Positions 1 to 12,557 of a stretch of DNA of 14,317 nt are shown here, piece after piece. This DNA comes from a virus. The position numbers and the translations under genes were made by a program. The stretch is taken from the UHGV virus genome UHGV-0064133. One strand, 5' to 3'. Position 1 is the first letter of the stretch. Each line of letters starts with the position of its first letter. The notes beneath the pieces were generated by a model. That model worked only from the letters and a program-made list of their open reading frames with translations, searched no databases and was not told the origin of the DNA.

Positions 1-313
1 TTCCGTGTTCAAACGCGCTATCAAAGTCATCATCCATTTCCATCTCATCAGGCACAGATACCGGCGCTGGCGGGGCTGTGTAAAGTGGCATTACCTCAAT
101 ATTGAAGATATCCCCCTCGCTTGGACATGCCTCTGCGCTACCGTAAACCCAAGGGTGAACGACTCCGTTACGCTTGTTGATTAATCTGTGCGCCCACGCC
201 ACAGGCTCCGCTTCAATCCCCGCAAGCGCCATGCGTGCCAATGCAGATGCATCACCACACTGGACGTGATCGGTTTCAATGATGTGCTGTAATTGTTCTT
301 TGGTGAATGTCAT
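1..313 (-). CDS. hypothetical phage protein, N-terminal part only (ORF runs off the left edge)
   Basis: ATG at 313-311 on minus strand; frame checked by hand down to position 2 with no stop; 3-nt gap to the stop of the upstream 66-aa ORF; acidic stretch DEMEMDDDFD. No recognisable domain. Confidence 0.4.
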   Translation of the reverse strand, partial: MTFTKEQLQHIIETDHVQCGDASALARMALAGIEAEPVAWAHRLINKRNGVVHPWVYGSAEACPSEGDIFNIEVMPLYTAPPAPVSVPDEMEMDDDFDSAFEHG

Positions 314-3838: not shown

Positions 3839-4384
3839 TCACATGACCCCCAACATCGAAGTGACCATCGTCATCAGCGGGCCTACCTGCTCCGGCATGA
3901 GGCGGAACAGCGACGCTATACCCTCGCTTACCTCTTTCAGCTTCTGATGCTCTGGAGCGTCCAGCAGCACGGCCTGTTTAGCCTCGGCACACTCTTTCAT
4001 CGCAGAGGCGATCAGCGACATCGTGTCGTTCTGCGGCGCCAGACGGTTTCGGTACTCCAGCGGCAGGACCGACATGATTGCCGGGGCCAGCTGGCGAATG
4101 TTGTTGGCGGCGTATTCGGTATCGCCATCAATCCATCGAAACACTTTCTGCATCTGGCGGTGCGAGTCAGTCGGGATATCCAGACCGGTTCCGCCGGACG
4201 CCCGCCACTCTTCCACGATCAGCGCGGCGACAAATTCACGGCTTCGGCAATCAGCTGCCCAGGCGCGAACAGCAGCGCGGATCCCATCGATGTTTAACGC
4301 CGCGGAATCAGGCTCCCGGCGATTCTGGTAAATCATCGCCGTTGGCGAAAATTTGTTACCTTGTTGATACGCAAGTGAATGCAT
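3839..4384 (-). CDS. phage regulatory protein, CII(CP76)/YdaT-like
   Basis: 181-aa ORF directly downstream of the cro-like gene; RBS AAGGGAAAG; segment QKVFRWIDGDTEYAANNIRQLAPAIMSVLP resembles what I recall of Rac YdaT and the CP76 family. Assignment is from memory, not a search. Confidence 0.55.
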   Translation of the reverse strand: MHSLAYQQGNKFSPTAMIYQNRREPDSAALNIDGIRAAVRAWAADCRSREFVAALIVEEWRASGGTGLDIPTDSHRQMQKVFRWIDGDTEYAANNIRQLAPAIMSVLPLEYRNRLAPQNDTMSLIASAMKECAEAKQAVLLDAPEHQKLKEVSEGIASLFRLMPEQVGPLMTMVTSMLGVM

Positions 4385-4413
4385 TGCTTTCCCTTTCGTG
4401 GTTAGGGCCGCCG

Positions 4414-4635
4414 TTAGGCGGCAAAGATACCTGGATATAGAACTTCGCGAGGAAGCCCCGTCACTTCTTCGTACTTACGCATTTTTGTTACTGGAAGGCT
4501 GCCACCTCGCTTTTTAAGCATATTGATGGCCTGTGGCGTTACGCCGACCTTTTCAGCAAGCACCTTTTGAGAGCCGCCCACTGCATTAATGGCTTTCTCA
4601 AGCGGGGTGCTTGCGTTGGATTCTTTGTTGATCAT
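4414..4635 (-). CDS. Cro/YdaS-like helix-turn-helix regulator
   Basis: 73-aa ORF divergent from the cI-like gene; HTH-like GSQKVLAEKVGVTPQAINMLKK; RBS GGAG 7 nt upstream of the ATG. Confidence 0.7.
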   Translation of the reverse strand: MINKESNASTPLEKAINAVGGSQKVLAEKVGVTPQAINMLKKRGGSLPVTKMRKYEEVTGLPREVLYPGIFAA

Positions 4636-4752
4636 GTTTTGCTCCGCTCATGTGTAATCAACACCATGTTAATTCATGATGTGGATTAAATCAACATTAT
4701 GGTGATGGAAAAAATCCACATGTTGTTTACCATGCATGGAGCGGAGGGTTTT
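4636..4752. promoter_or_regulatory. OR-like divergent operator/promoter region between cro-like and cI-like genes
   Basis: 117-bp AT-rich intergenic region with four copies of the 9-mer AATC[A/C]ACA (4657, 4689, 4714, and inverted at 4679-4687 as atgtggatt); candidate leftward promoter -35 TTGATT / -10 TAACAT on the minus strand (approx. 4694-4666). Confidence 0.55.
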
Positions 4753-5463
4753 ATGAGTAGCATTTCTGAAAGAATTAAATTTTTACTGGCAAGGGAAGGC
4801 TTGAAGCAGCGGGATTTGGCTGAGGCTTTGTCGACTAGCCCACAGACCGTCAACAACTGGATAAAAAGAGACGCGTTAAGTCGTGAGGCGGCGCAACAAA
4901 TATCTGAAAAATTCGGTTATTCTCTTGACTGGTTATTAAATGGAGAGGGTTCTCCAAAGAAGGATCTGGAGAGCAACATCCCGCCAGAGTCTGAGTGGGG
5001 AGTTGTTGATGCATGGGATAAAGACACCCCGCTTCCTGTTGATGAGGTTGAAGTGCCATTTCTTAAGGATATTGAATTTGCGTGTGGTGATGGTCGAGTT
5101 CAGTGCGAAGACCACAATGGATTTAAGCTGAGATTCTCCAAGGCAACGCTCAGAAGAGTGGGTGCAAATAGTGATGGTTCTGGAGTGCTTTGCTTTCCCG
5201 CTTCTGGTGACAGCATGGAGCCCGTTATTCCTGACGGCGCAACGGTAGCAGTCGATACAGGCAACAAGCGGATTATTGACGGCGAACTCTATGCTATTAA
5301 CCAGGGCGATTTAAAGCGCATAAAGCAGCTTTATCGAAAGCCTGGTGGGAAGCTATTAATACGAAGCATCAATCGCGATTATGACGATGAAGAGGCTGAT
5401 GAGGCAGATGTCGAGATAATCGGTTTTGTGTTCTGGTACTCGGTATTGCGATATCGCCGATAA
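4753..5463 (+). CDS. CI-like prophage repressor, XRE-type HTH plus S24 (LexA-like) autopeptidase domain
   Basis: N-terminal HTH (LKQRDLAEALSTSPQTVNNWIKR); C-terminal S24 motifs GDSMEP (Ser nucleophile) and ELYAINQGDLKRIKQL (Lys). Start set at ATG 4753 (RBS GGAGGG 4 nt upstream) rather than the track start at 4699. Confidence 0.85.
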   Translation: MSSISERIKFLLAREGLKQRDLAEALSTSPQTVNNWIKRDALSREAAQQISEKFGYSLDWLLNGEGSPKKDLESNIPPESEWGVVDAWDKDTPLPVDEVEVPFLKDIEFACGDGRVQCEDHNGFKLRFSKATLRRVGANSDGSGVLCFPASGDSMEPVIPDGATVAVDTGNKRIIDGELYAINQGDLKRIKQLYRKPGGKLLIRSINRDYDDEEADEADVEIIGFVFWYSVLRYRR

Positions 5464-5468
5464 TTTTA

Positions 5469-5581
5469 GTGGCCTGAAGAGACGTTTGGGTGATAAGAGA
5501 ATATCTGATAGTAGGCGTGGTTACTTTGCTCTCGGTTGTTGCGATCGTGCTTATGGTGGCCTGATGAGACGTTTGGGTGAT
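5469..5581. repeat. pair of 26-bp direct repeats (one mismatch) between the repressor gene and the KilA-N gene
   Basis: gtggcctgaagagacgtttgggtgat at 5469-5494 and gtggcctgatgagacgtttgggtgat at 5556-5581, 87 bp start to start. Confidence 0.6.
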
Positions 5582-5612
5582 TATTTTATTTTTCACAGCA
5601 ATAGGATGATTT

Positions 5613-6374
5613 ATGACACAGTTTCAACTTGCATTAATCGCCAGAGAAGTTGATGGAGAAGTCATCCATCTTCGCACCAAAGACGGTTACATCAATGCCA
5701 CCGCAATGTGCAAGTCTGCTGGGAAGCTACTTGCTGACTATACACGACTAAAAACAACGCAAGATTTTTTTGATGAATTATCCCGCGATATGGGGATTCC
5801 CATATCGGAATTAATTCAATCATTTAAAGGCGGAAGAGCAGAGAATCAAGGGACTTGGGTTCATCCAGACATCGCAATTAACTTAGCTCAGTGGCTATCT
5901 CCAAAATTTGCAGTGCAAGTATCGAGATGGGTGCGTGAGTGGATGTCAGGCGAAAGAGCGCCTGCCGAACTCCCTATCCACCTTAAGCGGTATATGACAA
6001 ACCGAGGCAGGGTTCCTCATACGCACTTTTCTATGCTTAATGAACTGACGTTTAACCTGGTTGCGCCACTTGAGCAGGCAGGATATACGCTGCCAGAAAA
6101 AATGGTCCCTGATATTTCAGAAGGTAGGGTTTTCTCGCAATGGCTTCGTGAAAACCGGGGTGTTGAGCCGAAGACGTTCCCAACATATAACCATGAGTAC
6201 CCAGATGGCCGGACATTCCCGGTACGTCTATACCCAAACGAATATCTTGCAGATTTCAAACAACACTTCAACGAAGTGTGGCTGCCTCAGTACGCTCCTA
6301 AATATTTTGCAGAACGAGACCAAAGGGCATTGACGTTGATTGAGAAAATCATGTTGCCTGACCTTGATTCCTAA
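5613..6374 (+). CDS. KilA-N domain protein with uncharacterised C-terminal domain (immunity-region cargo)
   Basis: N-terminal ~110 aa carry the KilA-N/APSES-like signature (YINATAMCKSAGK ... GTWVHPDIAINLAQWLSPKFAVQVSRWV); C-terminal ~140 aa (FPTYNHEYPDGRTFPVRLYPNEYLADFKQHF...) matches nothing I recognise. RBS AGGA; followed by a terminator hairpin. Confidence 0.7.
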   Translation: MTQFQLALIAREVDGEVIHLRTKDGYINATAMCKSAGKLLADYTRLKTTQDFFDELSRDMGIPISELIQSFKGGRAENQGTWVHPDIAINLAQWLSPKFAVQVSRWVREWMSGERAPAELPIHLKRYMTNRGRVPHTHFSMLNELTFNLVAPLEQAGYTLPEKMVPDISEGRVFSQWLRENRGVEPKTFPTYNHEYPDGRTFPVRLYPNEYLADFKQHFNEVWLPQYAPKYFAERDQRALTLIEKIMLPDLDS

Positions 6375-6382
6375 ATGTTATA

Positions 6383-6405
6383 CCCGGCCACCAAGCCGGG
6401 GTTTT
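6383..6405 (+). terminator. putative intrinsic terminator between convergent genes
   Basis: Stem cccggc (6383-6388) / gccggg (6395-6400), loop caccaa, followed by gtttta; lies 9 nt after the KilA-N stop and abuts the 3' end of the convergent small ORF. Confidence 0.5.
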
Positions 6406-6601
6406 ACTGCCCTTTCCGCACTATCTCAGCTGCATCCCTGTTCACACCCTTACCTATCACGTTTCCCGTTTCCTTCCGGTACCGTTCCAGCTTGTCGATG
6501 ATGTTTTGCTGGGTCATAGGTAAATCTGCCAGTGACAACTCCATGACCGCCCGCCCCATGGCGTGAACCATCATGTTCACTCTTTCTTCATCCAAGCCCA
6601 T
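6404..6601 (-). CDS. hypothetical small protein (65 aa) convergent with the KilA-N gene
   Basis: Strong RBS AAGGAG 6 nt upstream of ATG 6601-6599 on the minus strand; hydrophilic sequence MGLDEERVNMMVHAMGRAVMELSLADLPMTQQNIIDKLERYRKETG...; sits just inside the OL-like operator cluster. No family recognised. Confidence 0.5.
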   Translation of the reverse strand: MGLDEERVNMMVHAMGRAVMELSLADLPMTQQNIIDKLERYRKETGNVIGKGVNRDAAEIVRKGQ

Positions 6602-6650
6602 TACCCACTCCTTTTTGATGTTTTTTTCAGCATATCACTTATGCCACCAA

Positions 6651-6742
6651 AAAATAAATCAACATAAAAATCAACAAGAAACGATTAAATCAACAAAATA
6701 AATCCACAAGGTGTTGACCTATAAATCCACATGATGTTTAAT
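6651..6742. promoter_or_regulatory. OL-like operator cluster with rightward PL-like promoter
   Basis: Five direct copies of AAATC[A/C]ACA (6656, 6668, 6687, 6700, 6723); -35 TTGACC (6714-6719), 17-bp spacer, -10 TTTAAT (6737-6742) on the plus strand, with the last operator copy inside the spacer. Confidence 0.55.
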
Positions 6743-6785
6743 TATCCCATCGAAACGAAACATCGACAGCTGAGCGAAGTTAGCC

Positions 6786-6819
6786 AGCAGCGGACAGCAA
6801 GTCGCCTGCTTTTTAACAA
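6786..6819 (+). promoter_or_regulatory. promoter-proximal hairpin plus boxA-like motif (nut-like site or attenuator)
   Basis: Imperfect hairpin agcagcggac/gtcgcctgct (6786-6810, 8 of 10 bp) followed by TTTTTAA; overlapping TGCTTTTTAACAA (6807-6819) differs at one position from the rrn boxA consensus TGCTCTTTAACAA as I recall it. Confidence 0.4.
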
Positions 6820-7158
6820 CATGCAGATTTACAGCGTCAATGACCTGTTAAGACCCCTACACGTAAACGTGCTGTATCACCGGGTGCGATCCGGTCGGTG
6901 AGAGAGTATCCCCGCGCGAGAGCGAGAACGGCGTGAGAACGGGCAACACTGGCAGGGAGTTGGCGCTGACCAATACAGGGAATGTTATGGGATGTGGTGA
7001 AGGGTTCATGGACGGGAATATGTCGCACGTAAAGCGGCGAGGCCCGAGGAGCTATTGCCGAAGATAAGTAGGCCGAATCGGGTCGAAATGGGTCTCCCAC
7101 CTACCACATCGCCAAAGCATTTCTCCCGCATCAGCGGGTAACGACAGAGGGTAAGGGG

Positions 7159-7455
7159 ATGATCGACGACATCAAGCGCATCGACTCAATGATAAATGCG
7201 CTTCGCAATATGAAACAGGACATCAAGCGTCAGCAGAAACTAAGTGAAATAAACAGTTTAGACCTGTCGCCGAAGCAAGCTCAAAAGCGCAATGCCGATG
7301 CTGACTGGATTGCGATGGAACAGATTAAGCGTCGGCATGAGCTGCACGCTCTGTCTGTTGAGCTTGGGTTCGCTGAGCGCCGGGAAAGTTATGCTCCATT
7401 TGAATTAACTGACGGGTGGCACCGATTCGACCACAAGCCGCGCGAACCTCAATAG
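7159..7455 (+). CDS. hypothetical protein (98 aa), first ORF of the early-left operon
   Basis: RBS AAGGGG directly upstream of the ATG; charged, coiled-coil-like sequence; followed by a weak hairpin and T-run. Sits where lambda has N, but has no N-terminal arginine-rich motif. Confidence 0.55.
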   Translation: MIDDIKRIDSMINALRNMKQDIKRQQKLSEINSLDLSPKQAQKRNADADWIAMEQIKRRHELHALSVELGFAERRESYAPFELTDGWHRFDHKPREPQ

Positions 7456-8523: not shown

Positions 8524-11433
8524 ATGGAATTTTTCCATCTGATAAAAGCCAGTCAGAAGTCTGGCAAGAAAGATGCAGTGATTTGGTTCACTGCGAAAAG
8601 TGTAGCGCGCGCCAATCTCCAACTCGATGTGGCACTGGAAGAAGCCGGAATTGAAGAAACTGGCCGCGGTAAAGATTATGCCAAACCAATCCGCACCGAT
8701 TTCCCGGTATATGACGACCTGCCGGAAGAAGGCGCAGTGGATTACACCTGGTGCGAACGCTACGAACTGCAGAACGATGACCGCACCTGGCTGCCAAAAG
8801 TCACAGCTGAAAACTCTGACGAGAAAACGGCTCAGACCGTTGATAGTCACATAACTACTGAGTCAACGCTGCCAGAAACCGCTGGCATCACGCTGGACGA
8901 ACACGACGACGACTCAACCCTCTACCCGGTAGTGCAGATGCCGTTTCGTAAGCAACTGCTTTCCCAGTTCACCGCCGACGAACTGCGCCACCACGTAACC
9001 CACGAAGAGTACGAAGCTATCGGCGCGCTGGAGATGGACACTGATAACAGTTACGTCCAGAACTTGCTGTTAGCTGCTGAGAACTGCCCGGAAGTGAAGG
9101 GTTACGACACCAAAGACCTGTGGCGCTACACCGATGCCATTCGCAAAGTGTTCAGCCAGGACAAGCGTCACGAACTCGCGCTGGTACTCCGTTTCACCAG
9201 AATGTGGGCGGCGACTGATTACATTGACCGTGGCATCCTGGCGCGTGAATGGGCCGCCGGTAATCGCATCAGTAGTGTGCAGCGTACTGATTCCGGCACT
9301 AATGCCGACGGCGGTTACGTCACTGACCGTGGACCTGACGCACACCACACACTGGACACTCTCGATTTAGAGATTGCGTGTGCCCTTCTGCCTATGGACT
9401 TCAACCACTTCGAGATCCCGGGCAGCATTCTTCGTCGCGCTAAAGAAATCGTGACCAAAAAAGAAGAACCATGGAAATCATGGAGCAACATCCTGCGCAA
9501 TCAGCCAGGCGTTCTGGGTGTTAACCGCACGGCTATTTTTAACCTGGTACGTATCGCACCGGAAAATATTCATTTAACTCCTGTCGCTCACCTGGAATTT
9601 GTTAACCAGACCATGACAGCCGCGTTCAATTCCGCGGTCGAGTTATTGCCGTTGCATGAGGCTGAACCCGCAGCACAGGAAATTCCCCAACCTGAAGGTA
9701 AGGAGTCTCCGCGCAAATCCTTCTGCACTCACGAAGAGAACCTGCAACGCGTGCGTGAAGAAGGAGCACGCCGCCGCGCAGAGGAAGCGGCAGCACAACC
9801 GCAGAAAGTCGAACAAGAACTGGTTAAAAATGTCGGCAACGGAATATTCGACGTTACGGCTTTGCTGCAGAACTCAGCAACTCATGGCACGAAAAAGGCT
9901 ACGGAGACCACCAGCAATGTGCAGGTTCAAGAAACTGTCAGTGATGAAAAACAAGCTGGTGATGAAGTACAGCCAGGCGAAAGCAGTCTGGAGTCTGGTG
10001 AAGAGTCAGATACCAGCCAGAAGGACGATGTAGACCAGAATACGGATTCTGTCGCCAAAAATAGCGATTCTGTAAGCCAAACCGAACCAGTTGCAGCACA
10101 AACCGAGCCAGAAGCGCAATCTGACGAACCAGCTGTTGTTTATCCCGCTTATTTCGAGCCAGGCCGCTATGAAGGGCTGCCAAACGAGGTTTACCACGCC
10201 GCCAACGGCATCAGCTCAACCCAGGTGAAAGATGCGCGCGTTTCGCTGATGTACTTCAATGCGCGCCACGTAGAGAAAACCATCGTCAAAGAGCGCTCAG
10301 CGGTGCTGGACATGGGCAACTTGGTGCATGCGCTGGCGTTGCAGCCTGAACTACTGGACGCAGAATTCAGCGTTGAACCGGTGATCCCTGAAGGCGCATT
10401 CACAACGGCCGCGACCCTGCGCGCCTTTATCGATGAGCACAATGCCAGCCTGCCGGCGCTGCTGTCTGCCGACGACATCAAGGTGTTACTGGAAGAGTAC
10501 AACGCCACCCTGCCGCCGCAGGTTCCGCTTGGCGCTAACCTGGAAGAAACGGCACAGAACTATATGGCGCTGCCAGCTGACTTCCAGCGTATTGATGGTG
10601 ACCAGAAGCAGACGGCGACGGCAATGAAGGCATGCATTAAAGAGTACAACGCCACCCTGCCGCCGCCGGTTAAAACCAGCGGCAGCCGTGACGCGCTGCT
10701 GGAGCAGTTGGCAATCATCAACCCTGACCTTGTGGCTCAGGAAGCACAGAAACCGGCACCACTGAAAGTGTCCGGTACCAAAGCAGACATGATCCAGGCC
10801 GTGAAGGCAGTCAAACCAGATGCCGTATTTGCCGACGAACTGCTGGATGCCTGGCGCGATAACCCGGAAGGAAAAGTGCTGGTCACCCGCCAGCAGCTGA
10901 GCACCGCGCTGAATATTCAAAAAGCGCTTCTGGCACACCCGACCGCCGGCATGCTGCTGACCCACCCTAGCCGAGCCGTTGAGGTGAGCTACTTTGGTTT
11001 TGACGAGGAGACGGGCTTGGAAGTTCGTGTGCGCCCTGACCTTGAGATCGACCTGGATGGCGTGCGTATAGGTGCAGACCTGAAAACCATCAGCATGTGG
11101 AATGTTAAGCAGGAAAGCCTGCGCGCCAGGCTACACCGGGAAATTATTGAACGTGATTATCACCTGAGCGCGGCTATGTACTGCGAAACCGCAGCGCTGG
11201 ATCAGTTCTTCTGGATTTTCGTCAACAAAGACGAGAACTACCACTGGATCGCCATCATCGAGGCATCCGCTGAACTACTGGAGCTGGGTATGCTCGAGTA
11301 CCGCAAAGCGATGCGCAATATCGCAACCGGATTCGACACAGGTGAATGGCCAGCGCCAATCACTGCTGACTACACCGACGAACTGAACGACTTCGACCTG
11401 CGCCGCCTTGAAGCGCTGCGTACTCAGGCATAA
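8524..11433 (+). CDS. recE: RecE-like exodeoxyribonuclease VIII (large 5'-3' dsDNA exonuclease with C-terminal PD-(D/E)XK domain)
   Basis: N-terminal DAVIWFTAKS...FPVYDDLPEEGAVDYTWCERYEL and DYIDRGILAREWAAGNRISSVQRTDSGTNADGGYVTDRG match what I recall of E. coli RecE; C-terminal RPDLEIDLDGVRIGADLKT fits the PD-(D/E)XK nuclease motif; RBS AAGAGGA. Confidence 0.8.
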   Translation: MEFFHLIKASQKSGKKDAVIWFTAKSVARANLQLDVALEEAGIEETGRGKDYAKPIRTDFPVYDDLPEEGAVDYTWCERYELQNDDRTWLPKVTAENSDEKTAQTVDSHITTESTLPETAGITLDEHDDDSTLYPVVQMPFRKQLLSQFTADELRHHVTHEEYEAIGALEMDTDNSYVQNLLLAAENCPEVKGYDTKDLWRYTDAIRKVFSQDKRHELALVLRFTRMWAATDYIDRGILAREWAAGNRISSVQRTDSGTNADGGYVTDRGPDAHHTLDTLDLEIACALLPMDFNHFEIPGSILRRAKEIVTKKEEPWKSWSNILRNQPGVLGVNRTAIFNLVRIAPENIHLTPVAHLEFVNQTMTAAFNSAVELLPLHEAEPAAQEIPQPEGKESPRKSFCTHEENLQRVREEGARRRAEEAAAQPQKVEQELVKNVGNGIFDVTALLQNSATHGTKKATETTSNVQVQETVSDEKQAGDEVQPGESSLESGEESDTSQKDDVDQNTDSVAKNSDSVSQTEPVAAQTEPEAQSDEPAVVYPAYFEPGRYEGLPNEVYHAANGISSTQVKDARVSLMYFNARHVEKTIVKERSAVLDMGNLVHALALQPELLDAEFSVEPVIPEGAFTTAATLRAFIDEHNASLPALLSADDIKVLLEEYNATLPPQVPLGANLEETAQNYMALPADFQRIDGDQKQTATAMKACIKEYNATLPPPVKTSGSRDALLEQLAIINPDLVAQEAQKPAPLKVSGTKADMIQAVKAVKPDAVFADELLDAWRDNPEGKVLVTRQQLSTALNIQKALLAHPTAGMLLTHPSRAVEVSYFGFDEETGLEVRVRPDLEIDLDGVRIGADLKTISMWNVKQESLRARLHREIIERDYHLSAAMYCETAALDQFFWIFVNKDENYHWIAIIEASAELLELGMLEYRKAMRNIATGFDTGEWPAPITADYTDELNDFDLRRLEALRTQA
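10435..10666 (+). repeat. in-frame internal repeats within the recE-like gene
   Basis: Exact 25-bp repeat gagtacaacgccaccctgccgccgc at 10495-10519 and 10642-10666 (147 bp apart, 49 codons), plus a degenerate copy gagcacaatgccagcctgccggcgc at 10435-10459; peptide-level repeats EHNASLPA / EYNATLPP / EYNATLPP. Confidence 0.65.
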
Positions 11434-11438
11434 GGGGA

Positions 11439-12557
11439 ATGATGATGGAAAACACGAATATCGTAACCGCTGAGCAGCAGACTCCAAACACGATCTCAGC
11501 CAGCAATGCCATTTTCAACGTGCAGGCTTTAACCCAGCTTCAGTCTGTCGCCGGGTTGATGGCACAGGCAGCCGTAACGGTGCCTGAGCACCTCCGCGGC
11601 AATCCGGCAGACTGCATGGCCATCATCATGCAGGCGATGCAGTGGGGTATGAACCCTTACGCCGTGGCGCAAAAGACGCACCTGGTTAACGGTGTCCTGG
11701 GATACGAAGCGCAACTGGTTAATGCGGTGATCTCCAGCTCAAACGCCATCGTTGGCCGCTTTCACTATGAGTACGAGGGCGACTGGTCGAAATGTGCCAG
11801 CAGCCGCGAGATAACCGTTAAAAAGCCTGCGAAAGGTGGCGGGACGTACGACAAGAAAGAAATGGTACGCGGTTGGGAAAGTGCTGATGAACAAGGACTG
11901 TCGGTACGGGTAGGTGCCGTTATTCGCGGTGAAAGTGATATCACCTGGGGAGAGCCTGTTTTCCTCTCCAGCGTAATCACACGTAATTCTCCACTTTGGG
12001 TATCAAACCCGAAACAGCAGATCGCTTATCTGGCACTCAAATACTGGGCGCGCCTGTATTGCCCTGCAGTTGTTCTTGGTGTGTACACCCCTGATGAGAT
12101 TGAACAGCGCACAGAAAAAGAGATCAACCCAACGCCGCAACGCGTTAGCCTGGCTGATATCTCAGGTGACACCGTCACAACCACGCAAAGCGCACAGGAA
12201 TCGTCGGTAAATGTCGACTCTCTTGCCGATGATTTCCGCGAACGCATCGAATCTGCTCAGGACGTGGATAGCGCCAAATCGCTGCGTGCCGACATTGAAA
12301 CGGCGAAAGCTACGCTGGGATCCGCACTATTCACCGAGCTGAAAAACAAAGCCGTAAAGCGTTATTACCTAGTGGATGCACGCAACAAGGTTGAGGAGGC
12401 TATTAAATCCCTGCCCCAGCCCGACGAGCCGCATGCAGCCGAACGGTTCGCTGAAGCCGAGCGCATGCTTGCATCTTCAAAGCGTCACTTAGGCGATGAA
12501 CTGCACGATCAATTCAGCATCACCCTGGCGGATATGAAACCGGAATACGTGGCCTGA
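11439..12557 (+). CDS. RecT/Redbeta(Bet)-family single-strand annealing protein (probable)
   Basis: Directly downstream of the recE-like gene (5-nt gap); segment NPADCMAIIMQAMQWGMNPYAVAQKTHLVNGVLGYEAQ resembles the Redbeta/RecT core (compare lambda Bet DAQFIALLIVANQYGLNPWTKEIYAFP); three consecutive ATGs at the start, true start may be 11442 or 11445. Confidence 0.6.
   Translation: MMMENTNIVTAEQQTPNTISASNAIFNVQALTQLQSVAGLMAQAAVTVPEHLRGNPADCMAIIMQAMQWGMNPYAVAQKTHLVNGVLGYEAQLVNAVISSSNAIVGRFHYEYEGDWSKCASSREITVKKPAKGGGTYDKKEMVRGWESADEQGLSVRVGAVIRGESDITWGEPVFLSSVITRNSPLWVSNPKQQIAYLALKYWARLYCPAVVLGVYTPDEIEQRTEKEINPTPQRVSLADISGDTVTTTQSAQESSVNVDSLADDFRERIESAQDVDSAKSLRADIETAKATLGSALFTELKNKAVKRYYLVDARNKVEEAIKSLPQPDEPHAAERFAEAERMLASSKRHLGDELHDQFSITLADMKPEYVA

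What the first reader, a model, noticed from the sequence alone, without database searches (positions are those of the whole stretch)
4636..6742. Two operator clusters sharing the 9-mer AAATC[A/C]ACA, mostly as direct repeats
Nine copies of the same 9-mer occur in two clusters bracketing the repressor and cargo genes (4 around 4657-4722, 5 at 6656-6731), analogous to OR and OL. Unlike classic CI operators, most copies are direct rather than palindromic, which suggests half-site arrays and possibly cooperative or looped binding across ~2 kb. The OL cluster appears to control both the rightward PL and the leftward small ORF.
Basis: seen in the sequence. Interest (0 to 1): 0.4.

Follow-up and report, generated by a model that had tools for sequence, protein, structure and literature searches.

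The report
Phage phi80-type repressor operators OR and OL
The repeated 9-mer is the well-conserved half of the already described repressor-binding sites (OR and OL) of a phi80-immunity prophage, so the finding is essentially known biology; the one open detail is a small, conserved set of unpaired "orphan" half-sites next to a small gene of unknown function.

Summary
The repeats are real. AAATCMACA occurs 7 times exactly (0.28 expected). Its 8-bp core AATCMACA occurs 10 times, 9 of them in two ~90-bp clusters.

The clusters are the OR and OL operators of a phi80-immunity prophage, 99% and 96% identical to phage phi80. The phi80 GenBank record annotates six CI operators and the promoters pR, pRM and pL at these positions.

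"Mostly direct repeats" is only partly right. Five copies are the strong left half of 19-bp 8-3-8 imperfect dyads. Their weak right halves overlap or contain promoter hexamers, which is why the strong halves all lie on one strand.

Four copies have no dyad partner: 6657, 6669 and 6688 in distal OL, and 4680 on the minus strand in OR. The OL orphans keep sequence and spacing in 27 distinct related OL regions while the spacers diverge. In heteroimmune relatives their sequence changes together with the dyad half-sites and the repressor's DNA-binding domain. They are therefore probably functional repressor (CI) or Cro sites.

The OL orphans abut a conserved extended −10 promoter for a conserved divergent 65-aa gene. 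CI control of that gene and OL–OR looping remain plausible but untested.

Verdict: already known system; low to moderate interest.

The parts
4414..4635 (-). cro-like gene (phi80 gene 30 homologue), 73 aa, HTH_3
   Evidence: ORF. Pfam HTH_3. Annotated as the Cro-like regulator in phi80.
4656..4674 (+). OR1 (my label): AATCAACA-CCA-TGTTAATT. The weak right half contains most of the pR -10 (TAACAT, 4671-4666, minus strand).
   Evidence: Maps to the phi80 protein_bind 'CI operator' feature. Partner half is at the 99.88th percentile. pR is recovered by the promoter scan.
4680..4687 (-). Orphan half-site AATCCACA on the minus strand, in the 14-bp gap between OR1 and OR2. It is an exact copy here; phi80 itself has AATCCACG.
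   Evidence: No dyad partner (39th percentile). The 7-mer GTGGATT is kept in most relatives.
4689..4707 (+). OR2: AATCAACA-TTA-TGGTGATG. The strong half is the pR -35 (TTGATT, 4694-4689, minus strand). The weak half overlaps the pRM -35 (4705-4710).
4713..4731 (+). OR3: AATCCACA-TGT-TGTTTACC. It lies between the pRM -35 and -10; the weak half overlaps the pRM -10 (TACCAT, 4728-4733).
4753..5463 (+). cI repressor, 236 aa: N-terminal HTH (recognition helix ...SPQTVNNWIKR) plus a C-terminal S24 LexA-like peptidase domain.
   Evidence: Pfam Phage_CI_repr, HTH_3 and Peptidase_S24. PHROG 4. Annotated as cI in phi80. Helix comparison.
5613..6374 (+). Cargo gene: BstA-family abortive-infection protein with a KilA-N domain. 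It replaces phi80 gene 40A.
   Evidence: phrog_6287, E 2e-82. Pfam KilA-N. Only 66% of the query is covered by phi80. PMC8585504 describes bstA as lying downstream of cI.
6383..6400 (.). GC-rich hairpin between the convergent bstA and small-ORF genes; a terminator-like site.
6404..6601 (-). Conserved 65-aa gene of unknown function, transcribed divergently from pL. It has a strong Shine-Dalgarno sequence (AAGGAG).
   Evidence: phrog_3975. Conserved next to OL in nearly all relatives, of several immunity types. 508 homologues, all named 'hypothetical'.
6629..6658 (-). Candidate promoter of the small gene: -35 TTTATT (6658-6653), 18-bp spacer, TG (6637-6636), -10 TATGCT (6634-6629), start site near 6622.
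   Evidence: PWM score 7.9. TGnTATGCT, or TAAGTT or TATGAT, is conserved at the same place in the imm80, ENT1, TAACC and ACAAC immunity types. Inferred, not shown experimentally.
6657..6664 (+). Orphan half-site A (AATCAACA). Together with B it forms the 20-bp feature that the phi80 record annotates as the third OL operator (6657-6676).
   Evidence: No dyad partner. Exact in 23 of 27 unique related OL regions, one mismatch in the rest.
6669..6676 (+). Orphan half-site B (AATCAACA), 12 bp after A and 32 bp before OL2, which mirrors the 33-bp OR1-OR2 spacing. In the Pantoea relative it has a dyad partner (TGATGTTT).
   Evidence: Exact in 22 of 27, one mismatch in the rest.
6688..6695 (+). Orphan half-site C (AATCAACA), 19 bp after B and 13 bp before OL2. 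It is not annotated in phi80.
   Evidence: Exact in 19 of 27 and absent in one lineage. The same 19/12/24 spacing recurs with a different half-site in the ACAAC-type relatives.
6701..6719 (+). OL2: AATCCACA-AGG-TGTTGACC. The weak half contains the pL -35 (TTGACC, 6714-6719).
6724..6742 (+). OL1: AATCCACA-TGA-TGTTTAAT. The weak half contains the pL -10 (TTTAAT, 6737-6742).
7159..7455 (+). N antiterminator homologue, the first gene of the pL operon.
   Evidence: phrog_25091. Annotated as N in phi80.

Best explanation
The two clusters are the OR and OL operators of a phi80-immunity (imm80) lambdoid prophage. The CI repressor has an HTH N-terminal domain and a LexA-like S24 C-terminal domain. It recognises the half-site AATC(A/C)ACA, and the Cro-like gp30 presumably does too.

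Five sites (OR1-3, OL2, OL1) are 19-bp imperfect dyads of the form AATCMACA-N3-TGTKGATT. Bound CI would occlude pR (OR1, OR2) and pL (OL2, OL1). CI at OR2 is centred near -42 of pRM, the position from which lambda CI activates its own promoter, and OR3 overlies pRM.

The strong halves all lie on one strand because each weak half also overlaps or contains a promoter hexamer: the pR -10, the pRM -35 and -10, and the pL -35 and -10. The array therefore looks like direct repeats.

Four further copies are true orphan half-sites. I infer that they bind extra CI through one specific half-site contact plus protein-protein cooperativity. Their likely roles are to strengthen occupancy of OL and to regulate the promoter of the divergent 65-aa gene, whose -35 abuts orphan A.

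What rests on what. Identity with phi80 OR and OL, the dyad geometry, the promoter overlaps, and the conservation and co-variation of the orphans are shown here. CI binding to these sites is taken from the phi80 annotation. CI binding to the orphans, regulation of the small gene, and OL-OR looping are inferred.
For: Identity with phi80:
- OR is 99% and OL 96% identical to phi80.
- The phi80 record JX871397 annotates six CI operators plus pR, pRM and pL. They map to 4656-4674, 4689-4707, 4713-4731, 6657-6676, 6701-6719 and 6724-6742.
- The original record X13065 marks an O-R region and an O-L region that start exactly at the first half-site of each cluster.
- The motif is far above chance.

Dyad structure:
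- Five strong halves have inverted partners at the 97.8th to 99.9th percentile. The orphans' partner positions score at the 14th to 49th percentile.
- The promoter scan recovers pL, pR and pRM with hexamers overlapping or inside the weak halves.

Link to the repressor:
- The motif clusters occur only in loci whose cI keeps the N-terminal recognition helix QTVNNWIKR.
- Heteroimmune relatives with a homologous C-terminal domain but a different N-terminal domain carry different half-sites, in both the dyads and the orphans.

Conservation of the orphans:
- Across 27 unique OL regions with no indels, mean information is 1.88 bits (A), 1.88 (B) and 1.56 (C), against 1.12 in the spacers. The 11-bp B-C spacer has 20 variants.

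The small gene:
- The gene and its TGnTATGCT promoter are conserved across immunity types.
- The small protein is 100% identical in an imm80 locus and a TAACC-type locus, so it does not specify the orphans.
Against: - No binding data could be read. Ogawa et al. 1988 and Rotman et al. 2012 are not in the paper library, so 'CI binds here' rests on GenBank annotation and on my memory of those papers.
- The 27 OL sequences are phylogenetically related, so the conservation scores overstate independent support.
- Canonical 19-bp footprints anchored on A and B overlap by 7 bp, and those on C and OL2 overlap by 6 bp. Not all copies can be filled by canonical dimers at once, and the binding mode at the orphans is unknown.
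- The geometry of repressor sites relative to the small-gene promoter differs between immunity types. The sign of any regulation therefore cannot be inferred.
- Part of orphan A (AAATCA) also occurs at the same place in the heteroimmune ENT1-type relative, so some of its conservation may reflect the promoter rather than CI binding.
Confidence: 0.8

Rival explanations
1. Purely classical model. Only the dyad operators matter. The unpaired copies are decayed or duplicated operator halves, or A+T-rich promoter context, and have no regulatory role.
For: Five of nine copies are ordinary dyads. C is lost in the Pantoea lineage, where B has a proper dyad partner. ENT1-type relatives manage with three palindromes at OL and no orphans. 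Part of A is shared with a heteroimmune relative and overlaps the predicted -35 of the small gene.
Against: A and B are exact or within one mismatch in 27 of 27 distinct OL regions, at fixed spacing, while the neighbouring 11-bp spacer has 20 variants. In TAACC- and ACAAC-type relatives the orphans carry that type's own half-site, which relics would not be expected to do.
Confidence: 0.2
2. The repressor reads arrays of same-orientation half-sites. For example, flexibly linked N-terminal domains of one dimer bind head-to-tail repeats 12-13 bp apart (A+B, C+OL2), in the way AraC or P2 C bind direct repeats. Dyad symmetry would be incidental.
For: Eight of nine copies are on one strand. The direct pairs A-B (12 bp) and C-OL2 (13 bp) keep invariant spacing. 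A 12-bp direct pair recurs in the ACAAC type. The phi80 record annotates the A+B pair as one 20-bp operator. The cI linker between the HTH and S24 domains is about 35 residues long.
Against: The inverted partners at OR1-3, OL1 and OL2 score far above background. They are retained or improved in diverged relatives: OR1 is near-perfect in Pantoea and OR3 is a perfect palindrome in Rosenbergiella. The weak halves are explained by embedded promoter hexamers. Heteroimmune relatives have clear palindromes at pL.
Confidence: 0.12
3. The orphan copies are sites for the Cro-like protein gp30 rather than CI, or sites that discriminate between the two. They would tune the switch or shut off the small gene during lytic growth.
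For: cro and cI travel together in the immunity module, so the co-variation seen cannot separate them. The OR orphan plus the OR2 strong half form a 17-bp tail-to-tail palindrome, TGTGGATT-A-AATCAACA, a geometry different from the CI dyads.
Against: There is no direct evidence. In characterised lambdoid phages Cro and CI share the same operators (established knowledge of lambda, 434 and P22). The orphans carry the same 8-mer as the CI dyad halves.
Confidence: 0.1

Closest known systems
Phage phi80 OR/OL operators with CI and gene 30 (GenBank X13065 and JX871397; Ogawa et al. 1988 and Rotman et al. 2012, both cited from memory and not readable here)
   Same: Essentially the same element. OR is 99% and OL 96% identical. 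The six annotated CI operators and pR, pRM and pL are the same, as is the gene order cII-cro-OR-cI-cargo-OL-N.
   Different: Two substitutions in OR (window AT, phi80 GC at 4679-4680) make the inverted orphan an exact copy. The cargo between cI and OL is a BstA-family gene instead of gene 40A. The small divergent gene next to OL is present in phi80 DNA but not annotated in JX871397.
Phage lambda OR/OL with CI and Cro
   Same: Divergent cI and cro around a tripartite OR. A second operator cluster lies at pL, 1-3 kb away. The repressor has an HTH domain and an S24 autocleavage domain. The operators overlap promoter hexamers. OR2 is centred near -42 of pRM. Each operator has a consensus half and a non-consensus half.
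   Different: The sites are 19-bp 8-3-8 rather than 17-bp. OR1-OR2 spacing is 33 bp rather than 24 bp. All strong halves lie on one strand. OL has two dyads plus three unpaired half-sites instead of three dyads. Cooperativity and OL-OR looping have not been shown for this system as far as I could establish here.
Repressors that use asymmetric or directly repeated operators: P2 C (direct repeats), mycobacteriophage L5/L1 repressor 'stoperators', Bacillus phage phi105
   Same: The four orphan copies lack dyad symmetry, and the three in OL are arranged as direct repeats. PMC1934351 contrasts symmetric lambdoid operators with the multiple asymmetric operators of mycobacteriophages.
   Different: Five of the nine copies here are dyads. 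The copies are confined to OR and OL rather than dispersed through transcription units; only one stray copy occurs in 14.3 kb. The repressor is a classical CI/LexA-type protein.

Membership tests
phi80-immunity (imm80) OR/OL operator system | DNA near-identical to phi80 OR and OL, with copies at the positions annotated as CI operators | tested here: met
   99% (OR) and 96% (OL) identity. The six protein_bind 'CI operator' features map onto the copies.
phi80-immunity (imm80) OR/OL operator system | Repressor of the phi80 CI type: HTH N-terminal domain with the same recognition helix, plus an S24 peptidase C-terminal domain | tested here: met
   Pfam Phage_CI_repr, HTH_3 and Peptidase_S24. QTVNNWIKR is shared by all loci that carry the motif and absent from loci that lack it.
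phi80-immunity (imm80) OR/OL operator system | CI protein physically binds these sites and represses pR and pL | not testable with these tools
   This needs footprinting or reporter assays. The primary papers are not held, so only GenBank annotation is available.
Classical lambdoid tripartite dyad operators (lambda, 434, P22 type) | Divergent cI and cro flanking OR, and a second operator cluster at pL upstream of N | tested here: met
   Gene map and protein families and the phi80 annotation.
Classical lambdoid tripartite dyad operators (lambda, 434, P22 type) | Each cluster consists of three dyad-symmetric sites | tested here: not met
   OR has three dyads. OL has two dyads, and its distal copies A, B and C have no inverted partner (14th to 49th percentile).
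Classical lambdoid tripartite dyad operators (lambda, 434, P22 type) | Operators overlap the -35 and -10 hexamers of pR, pRM and pL | tested here: met
   Annotated hexamers and an independent PWM scan.
Classical lambdoid tripartite dyad operators (lambda, 434, P22 type) | Long-range OL-OR cooperation by repressor-mediated looping | not testable with these tools
   Only the separation can be measured: 2.0 kb here and about 1.1-2.9 kb in relatives.
Asymmetric or direct-repeat operator systems (P2 C, L5 gp71 stoperators) | Binding sites lack dyad symmetry | tested here: not met
   Five of nine copies have significant inverted partners at fixed spacing. Only four are unpaired.
Asymmetric or direct-repeat operator systems (P2 C, L5 gp71 stoperators) | Many sites dispersed through transcription units in one orientation | tested here: not met
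   Nine of ten copies are confined to two ~90-bp clusters. There is one stray copy in 14.3 kb, where about 0.9 is expected by chance.

The most novel reading that the evidence does not exclude
The unpaired half-sites are a conserved, functional part of phi80-family switches. CI would bind them in a non-canonical mode, either through one specific half-site plus cooperativity or through head-to-tail N-terminal domains. Through them CI would couple pL repression to control of a conserved divergent small gene, possibly activating it in lysogens from a pRM-like position. The gene's product has an uncharacterised, possibly YmgB/AriR-like three-helix fold. This architecture would have been maintained while the DNA-binding specificity was swapped at least three times.
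Probability: 0.3. Interest if true: 0.5.

Novelty: already known. Interest (0 to 1): 0.22.

Why it matters
The main result is a correct, evidence-based label: this window carries a phi80-type immunity switch, with the known CI operators at OR and OL and a BstA defence gene as cargo.

The residual value is modest but concrete. The comparative data show that unpaired half-sites, which are either ignored or lumped into one 20-bp 'operator' in the phi80 annotation, are conserved in sequence and spacing. They also change together with repressor specificity. In addition, a conserved, unannotated small gene with its own conserved promoter sits against them.

phi80 remnants are present in common cloning strains such as DH5alpha and DH10B. 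Both points could therefore be tested cheaply, possibly with existing RNA-seq data.

Tried and rejected
- Literature. Ogawa et al. 1988 (J Mol Biol 202) and Rotman et al. 2012 (J Bacteriol 194:6802, PMC3510586) are not held. Full-text searches for phi80 operators found nothing on binding sites. A search for the motif itself found only a table of putative RacR targets. The Lula paper does not discuss operators.
- The simple promoter scan tool found none of the known promoters in this region, so I used my own PWM scan.
- Leftward promoters that use the TTGATT contained in the reverse complement of each repeat as a -35, the way pR uses OR2. No acceptable -10 lies at 16-18 bp for A, B or C (and inspection). 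Rejected in favour of the conserved TGnTATGCT promoter.
- A LexA box upstream of the small gene. CTG-N10-CAG occurs in HK225-type relatives, but the window has TTG. Rejected as coincidence with the Shine-Dalgarno region (inspection).
- The small protein as the factor that reads the orphans. Rejected because the identical protein occurs with different orphan sequences.
- Function of the small protein. There are no Pfam or NCBIfam hits, and all homologues are 'hypothetical'. The AlphaFold model is of medium confidence (pLDDT 70). The only notable fold match is YmgB/AriR, with TM 0.72 and E 0.083, and a profile search of PDB sequences does not support it.
- M11919 annotation: only nutL and N are marked, no operators.
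Full report
**Observation**

The pattern AAATC[A/C]ACA occurs exactly seven times in the 14,317-bp window. All seven are on the + strand: two at 4688 and 4712, and five at 6656, 6668, 6687, 6700 and 6723. Dinucleotide-preserving shuffles give a mean of 0.28 and never more than 3.

The 8-bp core AATC[A/C]ACA occurs ten times.
- Four copies are between 4656 and 4720, one of them (4680-4687) on the minus strand.
- Five copies are between 6657 and 6731.
- One copy is isolated at 175-182. About 0.9 copies are expected by chance in this much sequence, so it needs no explanation.

**What the region is**

Megablast places 4300-6900 in the immunity region of phage phi80 and of phi80-immune prophages, including the phi80 remnants of DH5alpha and DH10B. 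Pairwise alignment gives 99% identity across OR and 96% across OL.

The genes fit this assignment:
- a YdaT-type cII (3839-4384, minus strand);
- a 73-aa Cro-like HTH protein (4414-4635, minus strand);
- a 236-aa CI with Phage_CI_repr/HTH_3 and Peptidase_S24 domains (4753-5463);
- a cargo gene (5613-6374);
- a small leftward ORF (6404-6601);
- the N homologue (7159-7455).

The phi80 genome record annotates six 'CI operator' binding features and the hexamers of pR, pRM and pL.
- Transferred to the window, the operators are 4656-4674, 4689-4707 and 4713-4731 in OR, and 6657-6676, 6701-6719 and 6724-6742 in OL.
- The 1988 record X13065 marks an 'O-R region' and an 'O-L region' that begin exactly at the first half-site of each cluster. 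The original authors therefore already delimited OL so that it includes all five copies.

The finding is thus the known phi80 operator system. I could not read the primary papers. The statement that CI binds these sites therefore rests on the database annotation and on my recollection that Ogawa and colleagues footprinted them.

**Dyads versus direct repeats**

I built a 9-bp weight matrix from the eight + strand copies. I then scored the position where an inverted partner should lie in an 8-3-8 arrangement.
- OR1 (TGTTAATT), OR2 (TGGTGATG), OR3 (TGTTTACC), OL2 (TGTTGACC) and OL1 (TGTTTAAT) have partners at the 99.9th, 99.1st, 97.8th, 99.8th and 99.8th percentile of all 9-mers in the window.
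- The copies at 6657 (A), 6669 (B), 6688 (C) and 4680 (minus strand) have partners at the 14th to 49th percentile, which means none.

Diverged relatives confirm the dyads.
- In Pantoea stewartii (CI 82% identical), OR1 is AATCAACA-TAA-TGTTGATC.
- In Rosenbergiella (67% identical), OR3 is the perfect palindrome AGTAAACA-TAA-TGTTTACT.

An independent repeat finder sees OL2 and OL1 as a 23-bp tandem unit, and OR1 and OR2 as 18-bp units 33 bp apart.

The same-strand appearance has a simple cause visible in the sequence: every weak half overlaps or contains a promoter hexamer.
- The pR -10 (TAACAT) lies almost wholly in the OR1 weak half.
- The pRM -35 overlaps the OR2 weak half, and the pRM -10 overlaps the OR3 weak half.
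- The pL -35 (TTGACC) lies in the OL2 weak half, and the pL -10 (TTTAAT) in the OL1 weak half.
- The OR2 strong half itself supplies the pR -35 (TTGATT).

**The orphan half-sites are real and probably functional**

I collected 78 related loci using the CI protein as query. From the loci fetched I extracted 27 distinct OL regions of the same immunity type.

Anchored on OL1, these regions align without a single indel over 75 bp.

| Site | Exact matches (of 27) | Remainder |
|---|---|---|
| A | 23 | one mismatch each |
| B | 22 | one mismatch each |
| C | 19 | five with one mismatch, two with two, absent in one |
| OL2 strong half | 27 | none |

The 11-bp B-C spacer shows 20 different sequences. 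Mean column information is 1.88 bits (A), 1.88 (B) and 1.56 (C), against 1.12 bits in the spacers. These sequences are related to one another, so the numbers are not independent trials.

A second line of evidence does not depend on that caveat.
- The motif clusters are present only where CI keeps the N-terminal recognition helix QTVNNWIKR.
- Relatives with a homologous C-terminal domain but a different N-terminal domain sit in the same scaffold: small gene, OL, pL, nutL.
- Those relatives carry different half-sites, and their distal OL again contains unpaired, same-orientation copies of that type's own half-site.
- The 'TAACC' type has two palindromes at pL plus two to four orphans.
- The 'ACAAC' type has orphans spaced 19, 12 and 24 bp. 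This nearly matches the 19, 13 and 23 bp of B-C-OL2-OL1 here.
- An ENT1-type relative has three plain palindromes and no orphans, so the feature is not universal.

The small protein next to OL is 100% identical in the window and in a TAACC-type locus. It therefore cannot be the factor that reads the orphans. CI, Cro, or both must be.

**How the orphans might work**

Canonical 19-bp footprints anchored on A and B overlap by 7 bp, and those anchored on C and OL2 overlap by 6 bp. Canonical dimers therefore cannot fill all copies together.

B lies 32 bp from OL2, which matches the 33-bp OR1-OR2 spacing, and in Pantoea it has a proper partner. B is thus most simply the strong half of a degenerate OL3. 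A and C are extra. The OR orphan likewise sits in the OR1-OR2 gap.

I infer that these copies recruit additional CI through one specific contact plus cooperativity. A head-to-tail reading of the 12-13-bp direct pairs by flexibly linked N-terminal domains is not excluded.

**The small gene**

The 65-aa ORF has a strong Shine-Dalgarno sequence. It is conserved beside OL in nearly all relatives, whatever cargo lies between it and cI.

A weight-matrix scan that recovers pL (score 11.3), pR (9.4) and pRM (5.7) also finds a leftward extended -10 promoter. It consists of -35 TTTATT at 6658-6653, TG at 6637-6636 and -10 TATGCT at 6634-6629, with a score of 7.9. The motif TGnTATGCT, or TAAGTT or TATGAT, is conserved at this place in four immunity types.

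With a start site near 6622, orphan A spans about -35 to -42. That is the position and orientation of the promoter-proximal CI subunit at pRM. In the TAACC type, however, the first orphan overlies the -35.

Whether the effect is repression or activation cannot be decided from sequence.

The protein has no family assignment. A medium-confidence three-helix model most resembles YmgB/AriR, with TM 0.72, 30% identity and E 0.083. There is no support at the sequence level.

**Looping**

OR and OL are 2.0 kb apart here and about 1.1 to 2.9 kb apart in relatives. These distances are compatible with lambda-style looping, but nothing tested here bears on it.

**Verdict**

The OR/OL interpretation is right and already published and annotated for phi80. 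The 'non-palindromic half-site array' reading is wrong for the core operators but captures a real, conserved and little-characterised minority of unpaired sites.

Novelty: already known. Interest is low to moderate, residing in the orphans and the adjacent small gene.

Noticed in passing
window 5613-6374 (+): The cargo gene between cI and OL is a BstA-family abortive-infection protein with a KilA-N domain (phrog_6287, E 2e-82). It replaces phi80 gene 40A. BstA is reported to block phi80 and to be neutralised by an 'aba' DNA element spanning the start of its own gene (PMC8585504), so this prophage presumably carries its own aba near 5584-5646.
   Followed up: partly
window 5464-5494 and 5551-5581 (+): A 31-nt direct repeat (90% identical, 87 bp apart; core GTGGCCTGA[A/T]GAGACGTTTGGGTGAT) lies in the cI-bstA intergenic region. 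The second copy ends about 30 bp before the bstA start codon. Its function is unknown, and a relation to the aba element or to a small ORF was not examined.
   Followed up: no
window 6404-6601 (-): A conserved 65-aa protein of unknown function with the C-terminal motif GNVIxKGxxRDAAExVRKG. It is not annotated in the phi80 record JX871397 although the ORF is present there. It has 508 homologues, all named 'hypothetical'. The predicted three-helix fold has YmgB/AriR (2oxl) as its best but weak match.
   Followed up: partly
window 6383-6400: A GC-rich hairpin (CCCGGC...GCCGGG followed by a T run) sits between the convergent bstA and small-gene ORFs. It is probably a terminator serving both directions.
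   Followed up: no
L004 (Enterobacter phage ENT1), L056/L066/L069 (IMG/VR contigs), OL regions: At least four different immunity specificities occupy the same scaffold of small gene, OL, pL and nutL. The CI C-terminal domains are homologous while the N-terminal domains are swapped. This is a clean natural example of modular exchange of repressor DNA-binding domains together with their operators.
   Followed up: partly
window 8524-11433 and 11439-12557 (+): The pL operon carries a 969-aa RecE-like exonuclease VIII and a 372-aa RecT, rather than the recombination genes of phi80 itself. The window is therefore a mosaic prophage with phi80 immunity, not phi80.
   Followed up: no
window 175-182 (-): A single stray exact copy of the half-site (TAATCAACA) lies far from the operators, inside or next to an Ea22-like gene region. 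This is consistent with chance.
   Followed up: yes
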